From Candidatus Daviesbacteria bacterium RIFCSPHIGHO2_12_FULL_37_16 (GTDB lineage Bacteria > Patescibacteriota > Microgenomatia > Daviesbacterales > UBA10151), in the NCBI GenBank assembly GCA_001776785.1, contig MFDF01000023.1, forward strand, positions 60,432-124,431: a DNA stretch of 64,000 nucleotides. Direction: 5' to 3'. The translations under genes and the position numbers were made by a program. The notes below the pieces were generated by a model. That model did no database searches. It was not told the DNA's origin and was given only the letters and a program-made list of their open reading frames with translations. Each line of letters begins with the position of its first letter. Positions within the stretch are counted from its first letter, which is position 1. Positions 5,243 to 58,058 of the stretch are shown piece after piece.

Positions 5243-6117
5243 ACTTTTGCTAAACTGTGTTCTGTTTTATTGACAGGTCCTAAAGGGATCTGGTCCTGAG
5301 GGTCATCAAGGAAGAAGTATAGTACAGGTCCTTTTCTTGGTCCACCTGCTAATCCTACCTCATGCATTACTTCTGGAGAACCTCCTAAGTGTTTGCCTGT
5401 CCACTCAGCTGGTCCTGCGTCCCCTATTACTGCAACTACTGCCTGGCCTGTTTTAGGGTTAACTACCAGCATTTTTCTAAATTTATAAAAATCCCTATAT
5501 TCTGCAACCCTTTCTGAGAATCCAGGAGAGAGAAAAGTCTGGACAGCCAGATAATACCTTTCCTGGGCCTCATCTTTTGGGGTAAACTGGGCTTTTGATG
5601 GAGTAAAATATCCCCATGCTCCAAGTCCAGGAGCAATGCCTGAGGATCCATACATAGCCCAGTCCTGTGCAGTTTTAGCATGGGCTTCTAAAGTATCCCC
5701 TGGATATCTATAGAGGTGCTGCTCTCCACCAATTACTCCATAAGTCCTGTTTAACCTTTTTCCATCTATCTCTGCTTTAATATCCAGATCTAAGTCTTTT
5801 TTAACTAGTTCTTCTACAACTTTTTCTTCAGTTGGTGTAAGAGCCCTGGTTTCTTTAGGGATTTTATCTGTAAGTTCTGCTGCCAATAGAGCATTTTTAG
5901 AAGTTGAAGCCCCAATTTTAGACTGGTCTTGCTGCGCTGGATGAGTGATAGGGACTGAAAGCCCTGGGGTAGATAAAAGCATAAGTCCCCCAAGGGTAGA
6001 GGCTGCTGCATTTCTAAAGTGTTTTTCAAAAAGATTTTCTGTAATGTCTTTGTTTCTTGAAATCCACTTTTTCCTTAGGTGTTCATAATGAGGCCTTTTT
6101 GATTTGAATAGGTTCAT
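5239..6117 (-). CDS. Hypothetical secreted protein, possibly an RlpA/3D-like double-psi beta-barrel
   Basis: N-terminal hydrophobic segment. VVAVIGDAGPAEWTGKHLGGSPEV resembles the DPBB (RlpA/3D) core. Weak. Confidence 0.4.
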   Translation of the reverse strand: MNLFKSKRPHYEHLRKKWISRNKDITENLFEKHFRNAAASTLGGLMLLSTPGLSVPITHPAQQDQSKIGASTSKNALLAAELTDKIPKETRALTPTEEKVVEELVKKDLDLDIKAEIDGKRLNRTYGVIGGEQHLYRYPGDTLEAHAKTAQDWAMYGSSGIAPGLGAWGYFTPSKAQFTPKDEAQERYYLAVQTFLSPGFSERVAEYRDFYKFRKMLVVNPKTGQAVVAVIGDAGPAEWTGKHLGGSPEVMHEVGLAGGPRKGPVLYFFLDDPQDQIPLGPVNKTEHSLAKV

Positions 6118-6118
6118 T

Positions 6119-7426
6119 TTATTTAGTTATTAATTTCAAAAATGTTTTGGTGATTGTTATTGCTGTAAACATTGAGACTAAAACCCCAATTGCCAGCGTT
6201 ATAGCAAAACCCCTGACAGGACCTGTACCTAAAAAGTATAGAATAGCTGCAGTAATTAATGAAGAAATATTTGAATCCCTGATGGATGACCAGGCTCTCT
6301 TAAAACCCTCTTCCAGTGCAGTTTTATTTGATTTACCCCATCTTTTTTCTTCCTTCATCCTTTCAAAAATTAAGATATTGGCATCAACAGCCATACCAAT
6401 TGAGAGAATAAATCCTGCAATGCCTGCTAAAGTTAAGGTGACAGGGGGGAGGATAAATAGACCTGTTTTAAAGATTGCTAAAACCAGTAGTGAATAAATT
6501 ATTAAAGCAATGTCTGCAACAATTCCTAAAAAACCATAATAAAAGGCCATATAAATCATTATAGTTAGAAGGCCTATTGCTCCTGCAGCTAAACTTTTAT
6601 TAACAGATTCCTGGCCCAGCGTTGCACCAATAGAGCGTTGCTCAATGATTTGAATTGGGACAGGTAAAGCCCCTGCATTTAGCTGGACTGCTAACTGTTT
6701 AGCAGTTTCAGAGGTGAAATTTCCAGTTATGACTGCGCTGCCACCAATAATTTCCTGCTGGACAGTGGGAGCAGAAACAGGAAGCTCATCTAAAAAGATG
6801 GGTAAACTCTTGCCAATGTTTCTTTTGGTGATTTCAGCAAATTTTTGAGCACCAACTGGTGTGAATTCAATTGAGACTTGGGCACCTGCCTGGGAACCAC
6901 CCTGGCCAAAAACAACAGTAGATTTTTTAAGATCTGCTCCTGTTAAACCTGTGGGTTTTGTAGTATCCAGTGAAATGAGGAGTCCACTCATAGTAGCAGG
7001 AATGTTTGGGTCTTCAACTATTTCCCTAAATTCAAGCTGAGCTGTTTTTCCAACCAAACTGGCAGCCTCAGAGGCATTTTGGATTCCCGGGAGGTCAACT
7101 AAAATTCTTCTGGAGTCACCAACTTTTGAAGATTGGACAACAGATTCAGAAACACCAAATAAGTTAACTCTTCTTTCTATGACAACTCTGGCTGATTCTA
7201 AAGCATTGTCTCTATCTTCTGAGGCGATATTTTCCATTTTGGTTTCCAGCACAAGCTGTGTTCCACCCTGGAGGTCTAATCCAAGCTTGAGAGGAATTGT
7301 GCCAAGTATTTCATTTGAGTTTTTATTGACTGCTGGAATTTGAAAGTTGGGAAGATTAACCTTAGGAAGGTCCACAAAAAGTGCAGCAAGAATAAGAATG
7401 ATAATAAGCCAAAGTTTAGTCCGCAT
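6119..7426 (-). CDS. secD: Protein-export membrane protein SecD
   Basis: Signal/TM then a large periplasmic domain then 6 TM helices (GLDLQGGTQLVLE..., ...IFERMKEE). Typical SecD. Confidence 0.85.
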   Translation of the reverse strand: MRTKLWLIIILILAALFVDLPKVNLPNFQIPAVNKNSNEILGTIPLKLGLDLQGGTQLVLETKMENIASEDRDNALESARVVIERRVNLFGVSESVVQSSKVGDSRRILVDLPGIQNASEAASLVGKTAQLEFREIVEDPNIPATMSGLLISLDTTKPTGLTGADLKKSTVVFGQGGSQAGAQVSIEFTPVGAQKFAEITKRNIGKSLPIFLDELPVSAPTVQQEIIGGSAVITGNFTSETAKQLAVQLNAGALPVPIQIIEQRSIGATLGQESVNKSLAAGAIGLLTIMIYMAFYYGFLGIVADIALIIYSLLVLAIFKTGLFILPPVTLTLAGIAGFILSIGMAVDANILIFERMKEEKRWGKSNKTALEEGFKRAWSSIRDSNISSLITAAILYFLGTGPVRGFAITLAIGVLVSMFTAITITKTFLKLITK

Positions 7427-10879: not shown

Positions 10880-10908
10880 AATCCCCCCAAGTTTGGGGGG
10901 ATTTTTTT
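10880..10908 (+). terminator. Rho-independent terminator (ATCCCCCC-loop-GGGGGGAT then T7)
   Basis: Perfect 8-bp GC stem then TTTTTTT. Also sits just downstream of the convergent comM. Confidence 0.6.
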
Positions 10909-47924: not shown

Positions 47925-49919
47925 ATGAATTTACAAAGCTTTGTAGATATATTTATTTGGGGGGCTGCAGGAGCTGCCACACTTTATGGACTTATTTTAT
48001 CCTACCTTATTTTAAGACTTCCTGATGGAAATGAAAAAATGAAAGAGATTGCTTCTGCAATTCAGGAGGGGGCAGCAGCTTATTTATCCAGGCAATACAT
48101 GGTGGTTTCTTTGGTGGCTGTTGTTTTAGCTGCACTGATTTATCAGTTTTTGGGTTTAAATAGCGCTCTGGGATTCTTGGTTGGAGCAGTTTGCAGTGGA
48201 ATTGCAGGCCTTATCGGAATGCTTATTGCTGTGAGGGCAAATGTCAGGTGTGCAGAAGCTGCAAAAGATGGATTATCCCAGGCTTTTAATGTGGCTTTCA
48301 GAGGTGGGACTGTAACCGGGTTTTTGGTTGTTGGTTTAGCGCTTTTTGCAACTTATGGGTTTTATAAATACACAGGTGATCTAACAGCTTTGGTGCCACT
48401 TGGCTTTGGTGCATCTTTAATTTCTGTTTTTGCCAGGCTTGGTGGAGGGATATTTACTAAAGGAGCAGATGTAGGTACAGATATGGTTGGGAAAGTAGAA
48501 GCTGGGATTCCTGAGGATGATCCAAGAAATCCTGGTGTGATTGCAGATTTAGTGGGTGATAATGTTGGTGATGATGCAGGAATGGCTGCAGATGTATTTG
48601 AGACTTATGTAGTAACTGCTGTAGCTGCAATAATTTTAGGGGAATTAACTTTGTCAGGTTTGGGGGAAAATATAGTCAATTATCCACTTGCTCTAATGGC
48701 AGGGGCAACTTATGCTTCAATAATAGGAACTCTTTTTGTCAGATTATCTGGTAACAAAATCATGGGGGCTTTGTATCAGGGTCTGATAATCTCAGCTGTT
48801 TTGGCAGCAGGAGCTTTTTACTTTATAACCAATAGTTTAATTGGAGAAAGTGGACCTTTTTCAAGCTTTAATTTATTTTTATCTGCAGTAGTAGGGCTTT
48901 TAGTTACAGGTGGGATGGTGATTATTACTGAATACTACACAGGTACAAAGTATTCTCCTGTGAAGCATATAGCAGAAGCTTCAAAGACAGGACATGGAAC
49001 AAATGTGATTGCAGGTTTGGCTGTGTCTATGAAATCCACATTTGCACCAATTATTTTAATCTGCACTGCTATACTTTTTGCATACTCTTTAGCAGGGCTT
49101 TATGGAATAGCATTAGCTGCTGTAGCAATGCTTTCACTTGCTGGAATAGTTGTAGCAATTGATGCATTTGGGCCTATTACTGATAATGCTGGGGGAATTG
49201 CAGAGATGAGTGGGCTTCCTGCGAAAGTAAGAGGGGTGACTGATCCTTTGGATGCAGTTGGGAATACCACAAAAGCTGTAACTAAAGGTTATGCAATTGC
49301 ATCTGCAGGACTGGCTGCATTGGTTCTATTTGCAGCATACCAGCAGGAACTTGGGAGTGCAGTGGTTTTTGATCTGGCAAACCCAATGGTATTAGTGGGA
49401 CTTTTCATTGGGGGTGCACTGCCATATGTATTTGCAAGTTTAGCTATGGAGGCTGTAGGAAAAGCTGGAGCCAAAGTGGTAGAAGAAGTCAGAAGACAGT
49501 TTAGGACTATGAAGGGGATAATGACTTATGAGGAAAAGCCTGACTACGGCGCTTGTGTATCTATTGTGACAGCAACTGCACAAAAAGAGATGATTCTTCC
49601 AACTTTAATTCCAATTCTAGCTCCAATTTTAGTTGGACTGTTTTTGGGGCAGCAGGCTTTGGGGGGAATGCTGATGGGAGTTATAGTAACAGGGTTATTT
49701 GTAGCTTTATCTATGACAACTGGTGGAGCTGCCTGGGATAATGCTAAAAAATATATTGAGTCAGGAAAATTTGGGGGAAAAGGTTCATTTGCTCACCAGT
49801 CTGCAGTAACAGGAGATACAGTAGGAGATCCATATAAGGATACTGCCGGGCCTGCTATAAACCCCATGATCAAAGTAGCAAACATTGTAGCTCTTCTTCT
49901 GGTAAGTTTAATGAAATAA
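47925..49919 (+). CDS. hppA: Membrane-bound proton/sodium-translocating pyrophosphatase
   Basis: ~16 TM helices. GGG(I)FTKAADVGADLVGKVE, DNVGDNVGD motifs. Confidence 0.9.
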
Positions 49920-50165
49920 ATGGAAAGTAAGATCAAGAATTCTTTTCCCTTTGAAAGTAAACCAATCCTTTGTAGAAATTTAAGTCAGGAAGTAGATGTT
50001 AGTATTGATGCTTTAGTTGCAGCAAAAATTTATAGAAGTAGGGATCGCGCTTTAGCTGGACTTGTTGAGGAAGGTCTTGAAGCTTTTATAGAGAAAAATC
50101 CTAAAATGTTGGGAGTTATAGAGACTTATAAGGAATTTCAAGAAGCAGCTTCAAAAATGAAATAA
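49920..50165 (+). CDS. Small hypothetical protein, possibly ribbon-helix-helix-like
   Basis: The ATG overlaps the hppA stop (TAAATG). ...[22 protein letters not shown]. Confidence 0.4.
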
Positions 50166-50168
50166 CTT

Positions 50169-51947
50169 TTATCTAGTTCCGTTTAGGTCTATTTTTCTGA
50201 GTCTGACATTTTTTGGGGTGACTTCTACTAATTCTGAGTCATTAATGTATTCCAGGGCATCTTCCAGGTCCATGAGTTTTGGGGTATTAAAGTGTTCAGA
50301 AACTCCCTCTCCAGAGGATCTGTGATTAGTTTGTTGTTTTTCTTTAACTACATTTACAGAGATATCTCCAGGCCTTGAGCTTTGCCCAACTACCTGACCT
50401 TTGTAAACTGTAACACCTGGACCCAGAAAAAGTGTTCCTCTGGACTGGATACCAGTAAGGGCATAAAGTTTGGTTGCACCATTTTCATGGACAACTAGTG
50501 AACCATTATCCCTTTGGAAAGACTGACCTGGATCTTGGGCAAATTCATAAAAGTTTGTATTAATAATTCCCAGGCCTTTGGTGTCAGTAATAAATTCTGA
50601 CCTATATCCAAAAAGTTCTTTGGTTGAGATTATAAATTCCATAGTGGCTGTGCCATTATCATTTGTCATGTTTTGTAAATTTCCATGCCTTAAACCCATC
50701 TTTTGCATAACTACTCCAGAATATGTTTCTGGTACTTCTATATAAACTTTTTCAAATGGGGTAAGGGTTTGACCATTTTCCTGCTTTTCTATTACCTGAG
50801 GCCTTGAGACCTGGAATTCATAACCTTCCCTTCTTAACCTTTCAATTAAAATTGCCAGATGCAGTTCTCCTCTTCCTGAAACTTCCCATCCGCCACTTGT
50901 TTCCTTAACCTTTAGAGCAACATCATCTTCAGCTGCTTTAAACAACCTTTCTGCAATTTGACGGGATGTTTTAAACTCCCCTTCTTTTCCTGCAAATGGT
51001 GAAGTGTTTACACCAAAGGTCATTTTAACTGTGGGTTCTTCTATGGATAAAAGAGGAAGAGCTTGGGTATCTAAATTATCTGCAATGGTTTCACCAATTG
51101 TGATCTCAGGGATTCCTGAAAGGGCAATAATATCTCCGGCAAACGCTTCTTTGGCATCAATCCTATCCAATCCTTCAAAAGTCATAAGGGAGGTTAACCT
51201 GAATTTTGCTTTTTGCCCATCCCTGTTGATATGGATTACATCCTGGTTTGCATTGACTTTACCATTCATTATTCTACCTGTAGCAATTCTGCCTTTGAAA
51301 TTATCATATGAGGTGGAGGTGATTAAAATTTGAAGTGGTTTCTCCGGATCTCCAGATGGTTGAGGGATTTCTTTTAAAATTGTTTCAAAAATTGGGGTAA
51401 TATCTGTCATTGAATCTAAGTTTGGTTCTAAACCTGCCAGGCCATTTTTAGCTGAGGCATAAACAATTGGGAAATATGCAGAGTCTTCATCTGCACCAAG
51501 TTCTATAAAAAGATCAAAGGTTTTGTTTATAACATATTCAATTCTGGCATCTGCTTTATCAATTTTATTTATAACTACAATAATTTTTAATCCTAAACTT
51601 AAAGCCTGTTTTAAAACAAACCTGGTTTGAGGCATAGGGCCTTCTTTTGCATCAACCAGGAGTAAACAGCCGTCAACAAGTTTTAGGACTCTTTCTACTT
51701 CTCCTCCAAAATCTGCATGGCCAGGGGTGTCAACAATATTAATTTTGGTGCCAAGATAATTTACTAAAGCATTTTTGGAGAAAATTGTAATGCCTCTTTC
51801 TTTTTCAAGCTCATTAGAATCCATTATCAGATTTGTGTCTTTTAAGTCCTTGGAGAGTTTGGTTTCAGTTTGGCGCAGCAAAGAGTCAACAAGAGTAGTC
51901 TTGCCGTGGTCTACATGGGCGATGATTGCAACATTACGAATATTCAT
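50169..51947 (-). CDS. typA: Translational GTPase TypA/BipA
   Basis: G1 [11 protein letters not shown]3 DTPGHADF, G4 NKID. EF-G-like domains. Confidence 0.9.
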
Positions 51948-53142: not shown

Positions 53143-53285
53143 ATTTTGGAATAAGTACCGCGTACGGAAGATATCCTAGTCCTTCGACTTCGCTCAGGAC
53201 TAACGAACCAGATCAAAGATCTTTGTTCTCTCTTAACACAGTTATTACAAAATTAATGGTCACAAGGACCAATAAATTTTGTAAG

Positions 53286-53359
53286 TACCGCGTACGGGAG
53301 TCGAACCCGTGATCTTAACATTGAGAATGTTATGTCCTGGACCACTAGACGAACGCGGC
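53286..53359 (-). tRNA. tRNA-Glu (anticodon CTC)
   Basis: Hand-folded. GCCGCGT acceptor. D-arm GTCT-AGTGGTCCA-GGAC (very similar to E. coli tRNA-Glu). Anticodon stem TAACA/TGTTA, loop TTCTCAA. T-arm ACGGG-TTCGACT-CCCGT. Confidence 0.7.
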
Positions 53360-54972: not shown

Positions 54973-55611
54973 ATGAATAGAGAACAGGCGTACAACTTAA
55001 TGACTGAGATGATAAAGAATCCTAATTTGAGGAAACATGGAGTAGCTGTGGAGGCTATTATGAGGGCTTTGTGCAAATATTTAAAAGAGCGGGTCCGTGT
55101 CCACCCCGGGGGTGGAAGCAAGGTTACTGCTGGCCCGCACCCCCGGGGTGATGCCAAAGTGGATGAATTTGATGAAGAGGAATGGGCAATAGTTGGGCTT
55201 TTACATGATGCAGATTATGAGTTGATAGAAAAAGACCCAACCAGACATACTTTGGTGACTGAGGAAAAGTTAAGAGAAAAAGGGGTTAACAATGAGAGGA
55301 TGATTTCTGCAATAAAAGCTCACCACGATGGAATAAAAGAGGGAAGGGATAATTTGCTTGAGAGTTCAGTTTATGCAGCTGATGAGCTGTCAGGGTTAAT
55401 TACAGCTTGTGCTTTGGTACAGCCAGATAAAAAACTTGCACCTGTTAGTGTGGAGTCTGTAATGAAGAAATTTAAACAAGCTAATTTTGCAGCAGGTGCA
55501 AGAAGAGACCAAATTTTGGCTTGTGAGAAAGAATTAGAGATTCCTTTAAGAGAATTTGTTAAGATAGCTTTAGATGCAATGAAAGGAATTTCATCTGAGC
55601 TGGGTTTGTAA
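54973..55611 (+). CDS. HD-domain phosphohydrolase carrying an in-frame GC-rich insert
   Basis: H...LLHDADYE HD motif. Residues VHPGGGSKVTAGPHPRGD are encoded by a 50-nt palindromic GC-rich segment (55101-55150). Confidence 0.6.
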   Translation: MNREQAYNLMTEMIKNPNLRKHGVAVEAIMRALCKYLKERVRVHPGGGSKVTAGPHPRGDAKVDEFDEEEWAIVGLLHDADYELIEKDPTRHTLVTEEKLREKGVNNERMISAIKAHHDGIKEGRDNLLESSVYAADELSGLITACALVQPDKKLAPVSVESVMKKFKQANFAAGARRDQILACEKELEIPLREFVKIALDAMKGISSELGL

Positions 55612-55618
55612 TATTGTA

Positions 55619-55684
55619 GTTCTCCACAAGGTCGAACAAAAAAGAATTTTTCTTCGAGCGAGCGGAGCGAGTCGAGAAGTACAA
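55619..55684 (+). repeat. Family-3 GC-rich 3'-flanking repeat (second copy)
   Basis: See 39658-39722. Confidence 0.5.
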
Positions 55685-55686
55685 AT

Positions 55687-56961
55687 ATGTTAGATATAAA
55701 TTTTATTAGAGAAAACACAGATTTAGTTAAAAAAGCAGTCCTCGATAAAGAGATTAAGCTTGATGTGAATGAATTACTAAAACTTGATGATAGAAGGAGA
55801 GAATTGCTTGGTAAAGTTGAGGATTTAAGGGCACAAAGAAACCAGGCTGCAAAGGAGAGGAATATAGAACTTGGGAAAAAGGTAAAAGGTGAATTAGATG
55901 GGTTGGAAGATGAATTGAGAAAGGTTGAGGAAAAATTTAGAGAACTTATGCTTTTAGCCCCAAATATTCCTGCCCCTGATGCACCAGTTGGAAAAGATGC
56001 CCAGAATAATGAGGTAATCTATAAGTGGGGAAATAAACCTGACTTTGATTTTGAAGTTAAAGACCACATAGAACTTGGGAAGAATTTAGATATTTTGGAT
56101 TTGGAACAGGGTGCAAAGGTCTCTGGATTTAGGGGATATTATCTAAAAAATGAGGGTGCAGTTTTGCACTGGGCAATTTTAAGGCTGGCTATGGATAGGA
56201 TTTTATCCCATGGATTTAGTTTAATGGTCCCCCCCACTTTAGTACATGAGGAAGTTTTAGAAGGGTCAGGCCATTTCCCTTTTGGGAAAGAGAATATTTA
56301 CCAGATTGCCAATCCTGGGAAATTAGATAGTGGTGAGGATATTAAAAAACCTGTGTTTTTAACAGGTACTTCTGAACCATCTTTGCTTGCATACTTTATG
56401 GGTAAGACTTTAAGTGAGGAAGACCTGCCTGTTAAAGTTGCTGCAATGACCCAATGCTATAGATCAGAGGTTGGTGATTATGGTAAAGATACAAGGGGCC
56501 TTTATAGGATTCATGAGTTTACTAAAGTTGAGCAAGTTGTTATTTGTTCAGCTGATTTGGATGAATCTGAAAAATTATTTAAAGAGATGCAGGAAATTTC
56601 CCAAAAGATTTTAGAGGATTTAGGGATTCCCTACCAGGTTATTGCAACTTCTACAGGAGATATGGGGGCAGGCAAATACAGGATGAATGATATAGAGGCT
56701 TGGATGCCTGGCAGAAATAAATATGGGGAGACTCATTCTAATTCTAATTTGACTGACTGGCAGGCAAGAAGACTTAATATAAAAGTGAGATATAAGAATG
56801 AAGATATAAAATATGTATACACACTTAATAATACTGTTATTGCATCCCCTAGAATTTTAATTGCAATTTTGGAAAATTTTCAGCAAAAAGATGGGTCTAT
56901 AAAAATTCCTGATATTTTAATCCCTTATACTGGTTTTTCAGAAATTTCATCCAAACATTAG
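55687..56961 (+). CDS. serS: Seryl-tRNA synthetase
   Basis: N-terminal coiled coil. Class II motifs 2 and 3 (FRSEVGDYGKDTRGLYRIHEF, GSALAV-like ...IASPRILIAILEN). Confidence 0.9.
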   Translation: MLDINFIRENTDLVKKAVLDKEIKLDVNELLKLDDRRRELLGKVEDLRAQRNQAAKERNIELGKKVKGELDGLEDELRKVEEKFRELMLLAPNIPAPDAPVGKDAQNNEVIYKWGNKPDFDFEVKDHIELGKNLDILDLEQGAKVSGFRGYYLKNEGAVLHWAILRLAMDRILSHGFSLMVPPTLVHEEVLEGSGHFPFGKENIYQIANPGKLDSGEDIKKPVFLTGTSEPSLLAYFMGKTLSEEDLPVKVAAMTQCYRSEVGDYGKDTRGLYRIHEFTKVEQVVICSADLDESEKLFKEMQEISQKILEDLGIPYQVIATSTGDMGAGKYRMNDIEAWMPGRNKYGETHSNSNLTDWQARRLNIKVRYKNEDIKYVYTLNNTVIASPRILIAILENFQQKDGSIKIPDILIPYTGFSEISSKH

Positions 56962-58058
56962 TTAGGTGGGGGAACTGAAGGTAGTGGAGGACCAGGAGGG
57001 ATTGTGGGACTGGCTGAAGAGCTTTGTCTTTGTTTTAAAAGATCAACTGCTGAAGTACCAGAAGGTGTAGGGGTTGGTGTTACCAGGCTTGAGGAAGTTG
57101 TGGCTGGAGGAACTGAAGGGAGAGGAAGCGGTGGCGGAGTGGGAACTTGAGCTGGAGGGTTAGTTAGTGTAGATTCTTCTTGAGCTGGTATTGAAGCTGG
57201 AGATGGGGCTCCAGGTTTGCCTATTCCTAAGATAAAGTATGCAGATAATCCAGAGACTATTAAAATTACAATAATCCCAACAATTATCAATATTTTTGAA
57301 ATATTGAAGTGATTTCCTGATGTAGTAATAGATTCAGGAGTATTATTTGAGGGGACTACTAAATTTTCTGGTTGAGCAATGGGTGGAGTGTAAACTTCAT
57401 TGTGATTATTTGCGGGAGGCGTTTCTGATATTAAGTGGGAAAGGTCTGTGGGTGCAGTTTCAGTTGGAGTCTGAGGTGATGGAGGTGTAGATCCAGGTTG
57501 TTCAGCTCCCCCTAATCCTAAGCTCTGACTAAGATTTGGAGGCATATTTGGAGTTTGGGAATTATCTGGTGCAAAAACTTCTGGAGCTATTGGCTGGGTT
57601 GGTGCTGGAGGTTCTTGAAGTGTTGTTTCAGGAGGAGTTAGAGGGTTGACAGAAGGGGTAGCTCCATCAATTGTACCTGAAAATGCTGGTTGAGAGGGAA
57701 TGCTTGGAGTTAAGTTATCAAGAGGTGGTGCTGCAGGTGGGGTGGTTGAGTCCAGTGGTGTAGATCCAAAACTTTGGGGAGGATTAGATGGAGGAGCTGG
57801 ATCAATGGTAGAAGATGGGGGTGCAGAAAAACCTGTTGAAGCAGGTAAATCTGGTGAAGAAGATGAGGGTATATCAAGCGAGATTGGCTGGATAGGTGTT
57901 TGTGGAGATGCAGTTATATTTTGGGTTGGGTCAGAGGCAGGAGTGGCTGGGGGTTGTGCCTGTGATAACCCTCCACCTGGGGTAGAAGGCCAGCTAAATC
58001 CAGAGGGTGGGTTATTGGGATCGTTTGGGTTGTTAGAATTAGGATTATTAGGGTCCAT
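56958..58058 (-). CDS. Proline/Thr/Ser-rich low-complexity single-TM protein
   Basis: 366 aa, ~35% Pro. One TM (ILIIVGIIVILIVSGLSAYFILGI). Confidence 0.5.
   Translation of the reverse strand: MDPNNPNSNNPNDPNNPPSGFSWPSTPGGGLSQAQPPATPASDPTQNITASPQTPIQPISLDIPSSSSPDLPASTGFSAPPSSTIDPAPPSNPPQSFGSTPLDSTTPPAAPPLDNLTPSIPSQPAFSGTIDGATPSVNPLTPPETTLQEPPAPTQPIAPEVFAPDNSQTPNMPPNLSQSLGLGGAEQPGSTPPSPQTPTETAPTDLSHLISETPPANNHNEVYTPPIAQPENLVVPSNNTPESITTSGNHFNISKILIIVGIIVILIVSGLSAYFILGIGKPGAPSPASIPAQEESTLTNPPAQVPTPPPLPLPSVPPATTSSSLVTPTPTPSGTSAVDLLKQRQSSSASPTIPPGPPLPSVPPPN

What the first reader, a model, noticed from the sequence alone, without database searches (positions are those of the whole stretch)
55101..55150. 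In-frame 50-nt GC-rich palindromic module inside the HD-domain gene
Two 13-nt elements, CACCCCGGGGGTG (55102) and CACCCCCGGGGTG (55138), are each near-palindromic and reverse complements of one another. They flank 23 nt at ~70% GC in a ~35% GC gene and add VHPGGGSKVTAGPHPRGD between the His and HD motifs, lengthening that spacer to ~56 aa. It looks like a small palindromic element inserted in-frame without breaking the ORF (tolerated loop insertion, recombination hotspot, or mini-MITE).
Basis: seen in the sequence. Interest (0 to 1): 0.5.

Follow-up and report, generated by a model that had tools for sequence, protein, structure and literature searches.

The report
In-frame palindromic repeat in HD gene
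The GC-rich hairpin inside this gene is one copy of a previously undescribed family of tiny palindromic repeats that sit, translated, inside many essential genes of ultra-small (CPR) bacteria and probably spread with the help of a hairpin-cutting transposase.

Summary
Two 13-nt arms (55102-55114, 55138-55150) are perfect reverse complements around a 23-nt spacer. This is the GC maximum of the whole window, inside an HD phosphohydrolase gene of a Candidatus Daviesbacteria genome.

It is not a one-off. The 49-nt version lies inside ORFs in 22 of 25 cases. It is read through as HPRG..HPGG or TPGV..TPGV in unrelated housekeeping genes (RF1, FolD, Fmt, TrmD, LepA, Ham1, DinB and others) of Curtiss-, Roizman- and Daviesbacteria.

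Shorter versions with the same arms bracket a Y1/HUH transposase gene whose closest relative is the REP-associated tyrosine transposase (RAYT). Arm variants covary and track transposase lineages.

In the HD protein the insert adds 17 residues in a disordered loop. Orthologues lack it, or carry other palindromic repeats at the same spot.

Best reading: a REPIN-like doublet, mobilised in trans and tolerated in frame. It resembles Rickettsia palindromic elements but is three times shorter and has a candidate enzyme. The window itself holds no transposase, and mobilisation is inferred.

The parts
55102..55114 (+). Arm 1, CACCCCGGGGGTG. A 13-nt REP-like core that is palindromic apart from its centre G. 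Translated as H-P-G-G.
   Evidence: The same 13-mer is the arm of 134 copies in metagenome loci.
55115..55137 (+). 23-nt spacer GAAGCAAGGTTACTGCTGGCCCG. It is homologous, in the same orientation and reading frame, to the family's 23-nt loop consensus aagtcaaggcgaaacctggagag.
   Evidence: Codon-by-codon resemblance to L113 (GAA GTC AAG GTG TTA CCT GGA AAA).
55138..55150 (+). Arm 2, CACCCCCGGGGTG, the exact reverse complement of arm 1. Translated as H-P-R-G.
   Evidence: The centre base pair is flipped relative to most family members; this is a compensated change.
55095..55101 (+). Possible 5' extension of the element (ccgtgtc). It is shared with the 5' flank of the other copies that have the same arm order (L109, L175).
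   Evidence: flanks of L109:915 and L175:6063. Weak evidence; the boundary is not resolved.
54973..55611 (+). Host gene: HD-domain phosphohydrolase, 212 aa. The insert accounts for 17 extra residues relative to the 195-aa closest insert-free orthologue (minimal forms are 193-195 aa), in a disordered loop (residues 44-62) between helices 17-43 and 63-77.
49920..50168 (.). The position where other Daviesbacteria carry the Y1 transposase, in the neighbourhood of the H+-pyrophosphatase gene (1-2 genes away; with HisKA and a response regulator on its other side in L204, L206 and L208). Here it holds only an 81-aa ORF followed by TypA. There is no transposase anywhere in the window.

Best explanation
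The 49-nt module is one copy of a dispersed family of REP-like palindromic repeats of Microgenomates (CPR bacteria).

**Unit and doublet.** The unit is a 13-nt core, CA-NN-CC-N-GG-N'N'-TG; here it is CACCCC-S-GGGGTG. Two inverted cores separated by a spacer form a REPIN-like doublet that can fold into a 13-bp hairpin.

**Proposed mobilisation (inferred).** Doublets with 11-13-nt spacers, and single cores, bracket a resident Y1/HUH transposase gene related to REP-associated tyrosine transposases. I propose this enzyme recognises the hairpins in single-stranded DNA and copies or moves them in trans without making target duplications.

**Why copies lie inside genes.** CPR genomes have very little intergenic space, so copies land in genes. 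Only those that keep the frame, carry no stop codon and fall in a tolerant surface loop survive.

**In this genome.** One such copy landed in the disordered loop between the metal-binding His and the HD motif of an HD phosphohydrolase. It added 17 Gly/Pro-rich residues (…HPGGGSKVTAGPHPRG…) and is simply translated.

**Shown:**
- family membership;
- in-frame residence in unrelated genes;
- covariation of the arms;
- physical association of the same arms with the transposase gene in related genomes;
- loop location in the protein.

**Inferred:**
- that the transposase moves the intragenic copies;
- the single-stranded DNA mechanism;
- that the insert is neutral for the HD enzyme.
For: **Family.**
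- Spacer-length modes are 11-13 nt and 23 nt.
- The window's spacer resembles the 23-nt consensus in the same frame.

**Intragenic and translated.**
- 22 of 25 copies with a 23-nt spacer lie inside ORFs.
- 33 of 42 copies with 17-26-nt spacers of length 2 mod 3 lie inside ORFs, against 2 of 9 for other lengths in that range and 9 of 57 for 11-13-nt spacers.
- The hosts are unrelated Pfam families: RF1, FolD, Fmt, TrmD, LepA, Ham1, DinB.
- The reading is always HPRG..HPGG or TPGV..TPGV.

**Hosts.** Curtiss-, Roizman- and Daviesbacteria.

**Enzyme.**
- A ~215-aa ORF recurs next to the repeats.
- It is bracketed by them in L086 and L100, abutted by one in L085 and L106, and flanked by single cores in L135. 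That contig also carries an intragenic doublet.
- Pfam Y1_Tnp scores 42-44 bits against a cutoff of 23.
- The only NCBIfam hit is the RAYT model (E 9e-14).
- HUH and Tyr residues are invariant.
- The best fold match is 4er8, RAYT bound to a REP hairpin.

**Daviesbacteria.**
- The gene sits in a conserved neighbourhood in five loci, always within 1-2 genes of the H+-PPase gene.
- A doublet lies upstream of it and a singlet downstream.
- The arms differ by lineage: CAATCC, CAAACC, CACTCC.

**Covariation.**
- 94% of cells are paired; 7 of 13 pairs change on both sides.
- The score is 0.375 against 0.133 in shuffles (0 of 500).
- At the orthologous RF1 site, lineages carry perfect stems built from CACCCC, CACCTC or CACTCC arms with homologous spacers.

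**Insert is derived and in a loop.**

**No target-site duplication.**
Against: - The window (64 kb) has only this one copy and no transposase. The slot where other Daviesbacteria keep the gene is empty.
- The transposase-adjacent repeats seen in Daviesbacteria have other arm variants than the window's CACCCC.
- In Curtissbacteria, which are rich in 49-nt copies, the one transposase homologue examined (L119) is flanked by a different inverted repeat.
- The transposase scores below NCBIfam's RAYT equivalog cutoff (51.6 vs 80 bits). Its model is only moderate (pLDDT 61).
- No GTAG or CGTC head typical of REPs is present.
- Exact insertion boundaries and target are unresolved. The closest insert-free orthologue is only ~80-85% identical and the site is hypervariable.
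- Mobility has not been observed: no near-isogenic filled/empty pair was found.
- The metagenome sample was ascertained on perfect arms.
Confidence: 0.7

Rival explanations
1. The repeats are not merely selfish passengers. The hairpin itself is kept by selection inside the genes, for example as a binding or processing site for the resident Y1 protein, or as an mRNA structure that slows translation or stabilises the message. The HD copy would then be a functional cis-element.
For: - Perfect 13-bp stems persist at the orthologous RF1 site in lineages only ~70% identical in protein. This happens through sets of four coordinated substitutions.
- TopA orthologues keep 26/26 arm bases while flanks are ~70% identical.
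- The transposase behaves as a conserved gene in a fixed chromosomal neighbourhood.
Against: - Decayed copies exist (L212; P0402; the first unit in L139).
- Many orthologues lack the element altogether.
- Concerted evolution by gene conversion from other copies would give the same pattern.
- The TopA comparison is biased by ascertainment on perfect arms.
- No function can be tested here.
Confidence: 0.2
2. It is a classical MITE: a deletion derivative of a DDE-type insertion sequence, moved by cut-and-paste through its terminal inverted repeats.
For: It is short, has inverted-repeat ends, and is dispersed and multi-copy.
Against: - No target-site duplication flanks 13 independent intragenic copies.
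- Each 'terminal repeat' is itself a palindrome, and single cores occur alone (L135).
- The only recurrent neighbouring gene is a Y1/HUH transposase, not a DDE enzyme.
Confidence: 0.04
3. It arose locally. Template switching or hairpin-primed repair at the ancestral His-Pro codons (CAC CCC of KERHPEL) built a palindrome de novo, without any mobile source.
For: - Insert-free orthologues have CACCCC(G) at this very place (L005: AGA CAC CCC GAA).
- Removing 15 codons from the window restores K-E-R-H-P.
- So micro-homology with the arm half-site may have guided the event.
Against: De novo origin cannot explain identical 13-nt arms plus a homologous 23-nt spacer in more than a dozen unrelated genes of other genera.
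Confidence: 0.04
4. It is an assembly or binning artefact: foreign GC-rich DNA spliced into an AT-rich contig.
For: There is a sharp local GC jump. Repeats of this family do break or mis-join assemblies: several contigs end at copies, and there is the P0125 fusion.
Against: - The identical 212-aa protein was seen on 24 contigs from NCBI, JGI, ENA and Logan.
- The reading frame and flanking homology are intact on both sides.
- The same architecture is seen in many independent assemblies.
Confidence: 0.02

Closest known systems
REP / REPIN elements with their RAYT transposase (REPtrons) of Proteobacteria
   Same: - Short palindromic units, often as inverted doublets that form a longer hairpin.
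- A single resident Y1/HUH transposase gene flanked by the units.
- Unit sequence covaries with the enzyme lineage.
- No target duplications.
- Best sequence-model and fold matches of the enzyme are to RAYT.
   Different: - The core is only 13 nt.
- There is no GTAG or CGTC head.
- The enzyme is ~215 aa and scores below the RAYT equivalog cutoff.
- The long-spacer doublets are mostly intragenic and translated rather than extragenic.
- The hosts are CPR bacteria. The literature searches found no paper linking RAYT or REPIN with CPR.
Rickettsia palindromic elements (RPE; Ogata et al. 2000, 2002, as summarised in PMC10969869)
   Same: - Palindromic repeats inserted in frame in many unrelated, mostly essential genes of a reduced genome.
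- They add a peptide segment compatible with the protein fold.
   Different: - RPEs are ~100-150 bp against 49-51 nt here (17 aa).
- Some RPEs are CGTC-tagged REPs, and CGTC REPs have no dedicated transposase known (PMC3733652). This family has a candidate enzyme.
- There is no sequence similarity, and the phylum is different.
CGTC-tagged REPs (Di Nocera et al. 2013, PMC3733652)
   Same: - Small GC-rich stem-loops, sometimes found inside genes.
- Elements fitting this definition occupy the very same HD-gene loop in other Daviesbacteria (L001: CGTC|ATCCCCGA|cccga|TCGGGGAT|CCA).
   Different: The window's element lacks the CGTC head, the AT-starting 8-9-bp stem, the 4-5-nt loop and the CCA tail.
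GC clusters of yeast mitochondrial genomes (from my own knowledge; not tested here)
   Same: Short GC-rich palindromic mobile elements in a very AT-rich genome, occasionally lying in frame inside protein genes.
   Different: They are eukaryotic organellar elements with an unknown mobilising enzyme and unrelated sequence. Related 'byp' elements are bypassed by the ribosome. Here the frame and length statistics indicate ordinary translation.

Membership tests
REP/REPIN-RAYT system | Short palindromic unit present in many dispersed copies | tested here: met
- Several copies per contig in Curtissbacteria (L157, L178).
- Only one copy in the 64-kb window.
REP/REPIN-RAYT system | Units occur as inverted doublets able to form a long hairpin (REPIN) | tested here: met
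   - 13/13 complementary arms.
- RNA fold -39.7 kcal/mol, z = -2.3.
- Covariation of 7 of 13 stem pairs, including the centre pair.
REP/REPIN-RAYT system | Conserved GTAG (or CGTC) tetranucleotide at one end of the unit | tested here: not met
   Flanks of 13 independent intragenic copies and of the transposase-adjacent copies show no such head. The definition is taken from PMC3733652.
REP/REPIN-RAYT system | A RAYT gene flanked by the units (REPtron) | tested here: met
   - Met in related genomes: L086, L100, L135, and five Daviesbacteria loci (L005, L009, L204, L206, L208).
- Not met in the window, which has no such gene.
- Not met for the Curtissbacteria homologue L119.
REP/REPIN-RAYT system | The enzyme is a RAYT: Y1/HUH fold, HUH motif and catalytic Tyr, distinct from IS200/IS605 TnpA | tested here: inconclusive
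   - Pfam Y1_Tnp passes its cutoff.
- HUH (H81, H83) and Y141 are invariant.
- The only NCBIfam hit is the RAYT model, but at 51.6 bits against a cutoff of 80.
- Top Foldseek hit is 4er8 (RAYT) at E 8e-4, just ahead of ISDra2 and IS608 TnpA, from a model with pLDDT 61.
REP/REPIN-RAYT system | Single-copy, vertically inherited enzyme gene | tested here: met
   Conserved neighbourhood in five Daviesbacteria loci at 62-74% identity: always within 1-2 genes of the H+-PPase gene, and preceded by HisKA and a response regulator in L204, L206 and L208. Copy number per genome was not counted.
REP/REPIN-RAYT system | Extragenic location | tested here: not met
   22 of 25 copies with a 23-nt spacer are inside ORFs. 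Only the 11-13-nt-spacer class is mostly intergenic, with 48 of 57 outside ORFs.
REP/REPIN-RAYT system | The enzyme binds and cleaves the unit as single-stranded DNA | not testable with these tools
   Needs biochemistry.
Rickettsia palindromic elements (RPE) | In-frame insertion into unrelated protein-coding genes | tested here: met
   Seven different Pfam families were confirmed as hosts, and more by inspection.
Rickettsia palindromic elements (RPE) | Length about 100-150 bp encoding a conserved 30-50-aa peptide; Rickettsia lineage | tested here: not met
   The element is 49 nt, with a net gain of 17 aa. Hosts are CPR bacteria. The RPE size is taken from PMC10969869.
MITE (non-autonomous derivative of a DDE insertion sequence) | Target-site duplication and a parent insertion sequence with the same terminal inverted repeats | tested here: not met
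   No direct repeats flank 13 independent copies. The only recurrent neighbouring gene is a Y1 transposase.
CGTC-tagged REP | CGTC head, 8-9-bp stem starting with AT, 4-5-nt loop, CCA tail | tested here: not met
   The window element has none of these features. The insert in orthologue L001 at the same site has all of them.

The most novel reading that the evidence does not exclude
In Microgenomates a REPIN-RAYT partnership has moved into coding sequence. The hairpin doublets live inside essential genes and are actively maintained there: arms co-evolve by compensated changes at orthologous sites and track the lineage of a vertically inherited Y1 enzyme. On this reading they are long-term residents with a role for the enzyme or the host, not decaying junk. 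It would also give the first enzyme-linked model for how protein-coding palindromic elements such as RPEs spread.
Probability: 0.3. Interest if true: 0.8.

Novelty: new variant of a known kind. Interest (0 to 1): 0.62.

Why it matters
- **Origin of in-frame palindromes.** In-frame palindromic repeats in essential genes have been a curiosity of Rickettsia for 25 years, with no known mobilising enzyme. Here a much smaller analogue appears in another reduced-genome lineage (CPR). It has the same arms bracketing a RAYT-like transposase, and arm variants track that enzyme. This makes the origin and spread of protein-coding palindromes directly testable.
- **Practical consequences for CPR genomics.**
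  - These repeats create hypervariable loops in conserved proteins: the HD protein, RF1 and others.
  - They inflate apparent protein divergence.
  - They can break or mis-join assemblies, as in the FolD-Fmt fusion.
  - They generate spurious small ORFs.
- **For the HD enzyme itself** the insert is most likely a neutral surface loop.

Tried and rejected
- **Rfam (E-value mode) over 44-64 kb:** only tRNA-Glu at 53285-53359, nothing at the element.
- **Second copy in the window or in 1.3 Mb of orthologue loci:** none.
- **Look-alike palindromes that proved to be native coding motifs:**
  - L018:1350 is the H+-PPase [15 protein letters not shown] motif.
  - Window 51617 is the Typ[10 protein letters not shown] motif.
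- **Viral contigs:** no copy of the arm pair.
- **Near-isogenic filled/empty alleles:** sought in 90% clusters of Ham1, FolD and Fmt. The length differences were start-site, truncation or chimera artefacts, not empty sites.
- **Sequence search of the transposase against PDB chains:** no hit; only the fold search found RAYT.
- **Target-site duplication or a conserved target motif:** not found. There is only a weak echo of the spacer ends in the flanks.
- **Stop codons as the cause of the single orientation of the 23-nt-spacer copies:** rejected. Reverse frames are open 28 of 48 times against 31 of 48 forward. The 20-nt-spacer class uses both orientations.
- **Transposase in the window:** tblastn with four family members gave no hit at their thresholds (E up to 0.01 for the L086 query, up to 1 for the other three).
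- **Literature:** the 13-mers, and RAYT or REPIN together with CPR terms, gave nothing relevant.

Full report
**1. The observation**

- The sequence is as described. CACCCCGGGGGTG (55102-55114) and CACCCCCGGGGTG (55138-55150) are exact reverse complements separated by 23 nt. Each is a palindrome apart from its centre base.
- The motif occurs nowhere else in the window. Chance expectation is 0.28 matches at up to 2 mismatches, and none of 100 shuffles reached the observed four strand-matches.
- The 50-nt GC content peaks here at 0.74 against a window mean of 0.37 (sd 0.08). This is the maximum of all 64 kb.
- The module is 49 nt and 73.5% GC. Its spacer is 61% GC and the rest of the gene 38%.
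- As RNA it folds into a 13-bp stem (-39.7 kcal/mol, z = -2.3).
- It lies in ORF 54973-55611 (212 aa, Pfam HD), between lysS and serS.
- The protein is 100% identical to a Candidatus Daviesbacteria protein seen on 24 contigs. An assembly artefact is therefore unlikely.

**2. The site in orthologues**

- Most homologues are 193-199 aa. All length variation maps to one place, between CKYLxxR and EF(D/N)EEEW.
- The window's insert (VHPGGGSKVTAGPHPRGD; net +17 residues) is shared only by three near-identical database variants. The closest other orthologue, P0004 (80-85% identity), lacks it.
- Many other orthologues carry different inserts at the same spot.
  - At the DNA level several are hairpins that fit the published definition of CGTC-tagged REPs: head CGTC, 8-bp stem starting AT, 5-nt loop, CCA tail. 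L001 is an example.
  - Copies of these recur at unrelated places in other Daviesbacteria loci.
- An AlphaFold model (pLDDT 85.9) places residues 44-62 in a disordered coil (residues 44-56 below pLDDT 50) between helices 17-43 and 63-77.
- The site is therefore a tolerant loop that has been colonised repeatedly.

**3. The element belongs to a large family**

- Spacer lengths cluster at 11-13 nt (57 copies) and 23 nt (25 copies), with smaller groups at 17 and 20.
- The 23-nt spacers share a consensus (aagtcaaggcgaaacctggagag). The window's spacer matches it codon by codon in the same frame.
- Position relative to genes:

| Spacer class | Copies inside long ORFs |
|---|---|
| 23 nt | 22 of 25 |
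| 17-26 nt, length 2 mod 3 | 33 of 42 |
| 17-26 nt, other lengths | 2 of 9 |
| 11-13 nt | 9 of 57 |

- The host proteins are unrelated housekeeping enzymes.
  - Pfam confirmed RF1, FolD, Fmt, TrmD, LepA, Ham1 and DinB.
  - A ClpB-like ATPase, PurL, CarB, RecG, TopA, UvrB and a P-type ATPase are evident by inspection.
- The element is always read as HPRG-x8-HPGG or, one base over, TPGV-x8-TPGV. The third frame meets a TGA after arm 1.
- The length rule and the absence of stops argue that the element is translated, not removed.
- Exact look-ups name the hosts as Candidatus Curtissbacteria, Roizmanbacteria and Daviesbacteria.
- None was found on viral contigs and Rfam has nothing.

**4. A candidate enzyme**

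- Clustering all ORFs of the metagenome loci showed one non-housekeeping family recurring beside the repeats. It is a ~215-aa protein with YHxxNR, PNHFH and RYIHLNP motifs.
- Arrangement of the repeats around this gene:
  - L086: 148-185 | ORF 213-902 | 949-986.
  - L100: 906-942 | ORF 963-1643 | 1669-1706.
  - L085 and L106: one doublet abuts the gene before the contig ends.
  - L135: single cores flank the gene, and the same contig carries an intragenic doublet in a P-type ATPase.
- Family assignment:
  - Pfam assigns Y1_Tnp (42-44 bits, cutoff 23).
  - The only NCBIfam hit is the REP-associated tyrosine transposase model (E 9e-14), but below its equivalog cutoff (51.6 vs 80 bits).
  - The HUH histidines and the tyrosine are invariant in 30 members.
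  - A moderate model (pLDDT 61) has as best structural match 4er8, RAYT bound to a REP hairpin, ahead of the ISDra2 and IS608 transposases.
  - The family is large (at least 7,856 relatives at E <= 1e-10) and common in Daviesbacteria.
- In Daviesbacteria the gene sits in a conserved neighbourhood, always within 1-2 genes of the H+-PPase gene. In L204, L206 and L208 HisKA and a response regulator precede it. A doublet lies 20-30 nt upstream and a single core lies after the stop.
  - The arms differ by lineage: CAATCC.GGATTG (L204), CAAACC.GGTTTG (L206, L208), CACTCC.GGAGTG (L005, L009).
- CACCCC-flanked genes belong to Shapirobacteria, Roizmanbacteria and unclassified Patescibacteria.

**5. Covariation**

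- Over eleven distinct arm pairs, 94% of cells pair and 7 of 13 stem positions change on both sides. The covariation score is 0.375 against 0.133 +/- 0.03 in shuffles (0 of 500) and at most 0.13 in slid registers.
- Pairing within each arm is supported equally.
- The centre pair can only reflect arm-to-arm pairing: C-G in most copies, G-C in the window, U-A in L160.
- An unbiased sample came from RF1 orthologues found through the protein. The RF1 loop is another hotspot. DNA of five orthologues shows, with homologous 20-nt spacers:
  - perfect 13-bp stems made of CACCCC (L211), CACCTC (L209) or CACTCC (L210) arms;
  - one stem with a single mismatch (L213);
  - one decayed stem (L212).
- Each arm variant needs four coordinated substitutions. 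Either selection or concerted evolution therefore keeps the four half-sites alike.

**6. What it most likely is and how it works**

- The simplest account is a REP/REPIN-type system. The 13-nt palindromic core is the unit, inverted doublets are the mobile or copied form, and the resident Y1 enzyme acts on them in single-stranded DNA.
- This fits four observations: the absence of target duplications, the hairpin covariation, the repeat-gene-repeat layout, and the co-variation of arm type with enzyme lineage.
- CPR genomes are compact, so many insertions fall in genes. Purifying selection leaves those that keep the frame, lack stops and sit in tolerant loops.
- Copies with the 23-nt spacer are all read on one strand. 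Stop codons alone do not explain this. It may reflect peptide tolerance (hydrophilic EVKxKPGE against hydrophobic alternatives) or strand-specific insertion. The 20-nt class uses both orientations, which favours selection.
- In the HD gene the ancestral sequence at this spot was K-E-R-H-P-E-L, encoded ...AGA CAC CCC GAA... in L005. A pre-existing CACCCC half-site may have guided the insertion. The boundaries cannot be fixed.

**7. Caveats**

- The window has one copy and no transposase, and the usual slot is empty.
- The enzyme-adjacent repeats in Daviesbacteria have other arm variants.
- The Curtissbacteria homologue examined has different flanks.
- The enzyme is a distant RAYT relative.
- Mobility has not been seen directly.
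- The metagenome sample required perfect arms.

**8. Comparison with known systems and novelty**

- It works like REP/REPIN-RAYT systems and looks like Rickettsia palindromic elements in its effect on proteins.
- It fails defining features of each: no GTAG or CGTC head, mostly intragenic, and one third of the RPE length.
- It is not a MITE in the strict sense.
- Searches of the held literature for the motif, and for RAYT or REPIN together with CPR terms, found nothing.
- I rate it a new variant of a known kind.

Noticed in passing
L001:10116-10185; L004:3156-3245; L017:6776-6875; L082 (P0007); L020:10121-10170: The same HD-gene loop in other Daviesbacteria carries unrelated palindromic inserts. 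Several fit the CGTC-REP definition, as tail-to-tail dimers. Copies of the L001 and L020 inserts recur at other places in L019, L022, L013, L003 and L015.
   Followed up: partly
P0125 (ENA protein); L178:421-469 and L178:3810-3858: A database protein is FolD up to the element and Fmt after it. Both genes carry a copy 3.4 kb apart in the same orientation. This is either a real deletion by recombination between copies or an assembly collapse across the repeat.
   Followed up: no
L116:2921-3038; L139:about 6030-6150 (- strand); L124 (DinB): Several genes carry more than one insert. An Rrf2 regulator has a CACTCC-type and a CACCCC-type copy in tandem. An Xaa-Pro aminopeptidase has a degenerate CACCTC unit next to a canonical copy, plus a ...FRGND-type insert. 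A Daviesbacteria DinB has a VIPAKAGI-type insert plus a 49-nt copy.
   Followed up: partly
L209-L213 and L157 (RF1 genes of Curtissbacteria): The RF1 loop before ...VILEIR is a second insertion hotspot. It holds both 20-nt-spacer and 23-nt-spacer versions of the family, compensated arm variants, decayed copies, empty sites and unrelated inserts among orthologues about 70% identical.
   Followed up: yes
L119:1165-1205 and 1590-1630; L119:1640-1680 and 2325-2365: The Curtissbacteria Y1 transposase gene is flanked by a different inverted repeat (GGGTCTCTCC / GGAGAGACCC, followed by GGTTGTTGYAAT). It lies next to a ~40-nt duplication of the 3' end of the upstream gene, as if a small cassette had been inserted there.
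   Followed up: no
window 47925-50168: The H+-pyrophosphatase is present. The neighbouring two-component genes and Y1 transposase seen in other Daviesbacteria are absent. An 81-aa ORF and then TypA follow instead.
   Followed up: partly
window 55625-55680: A GC- and purine-rich stretch (cgagcgagcggagcgagtcgag) lies in the short spacer between the HD gene and serS. It is not a hairpin and its purpose is unknown.
   Followed up: no
window 56958-58058 (- strand): A 366-aa ORF made almost entirely of Pro/Ser/Thr/Asn-rich low-complexity sequence, with one hydrophobic, membrane-like segment. It overlaps the end of serS by 4 nt.
   Followed up: no
window 51617-51629; L018:1350-1376: Native coding motifs can mimic the repeat core: Typ[10 protein letters not shown] gives CAAACCTGGTTTG, and H+-PPase DDPRNPGV gives GATGACCCCCGG aat CCGGGGGTCATC. 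This is a caution for pattern-based censuses.
   Followed up: yes
window 10880-10903: AATCCCCCCAA gt TTGGGGGGATT followed by a T-run. This is the only other perfect GC-rich stem in the window and looks like an intrinsic terminator.
   Followed up: no
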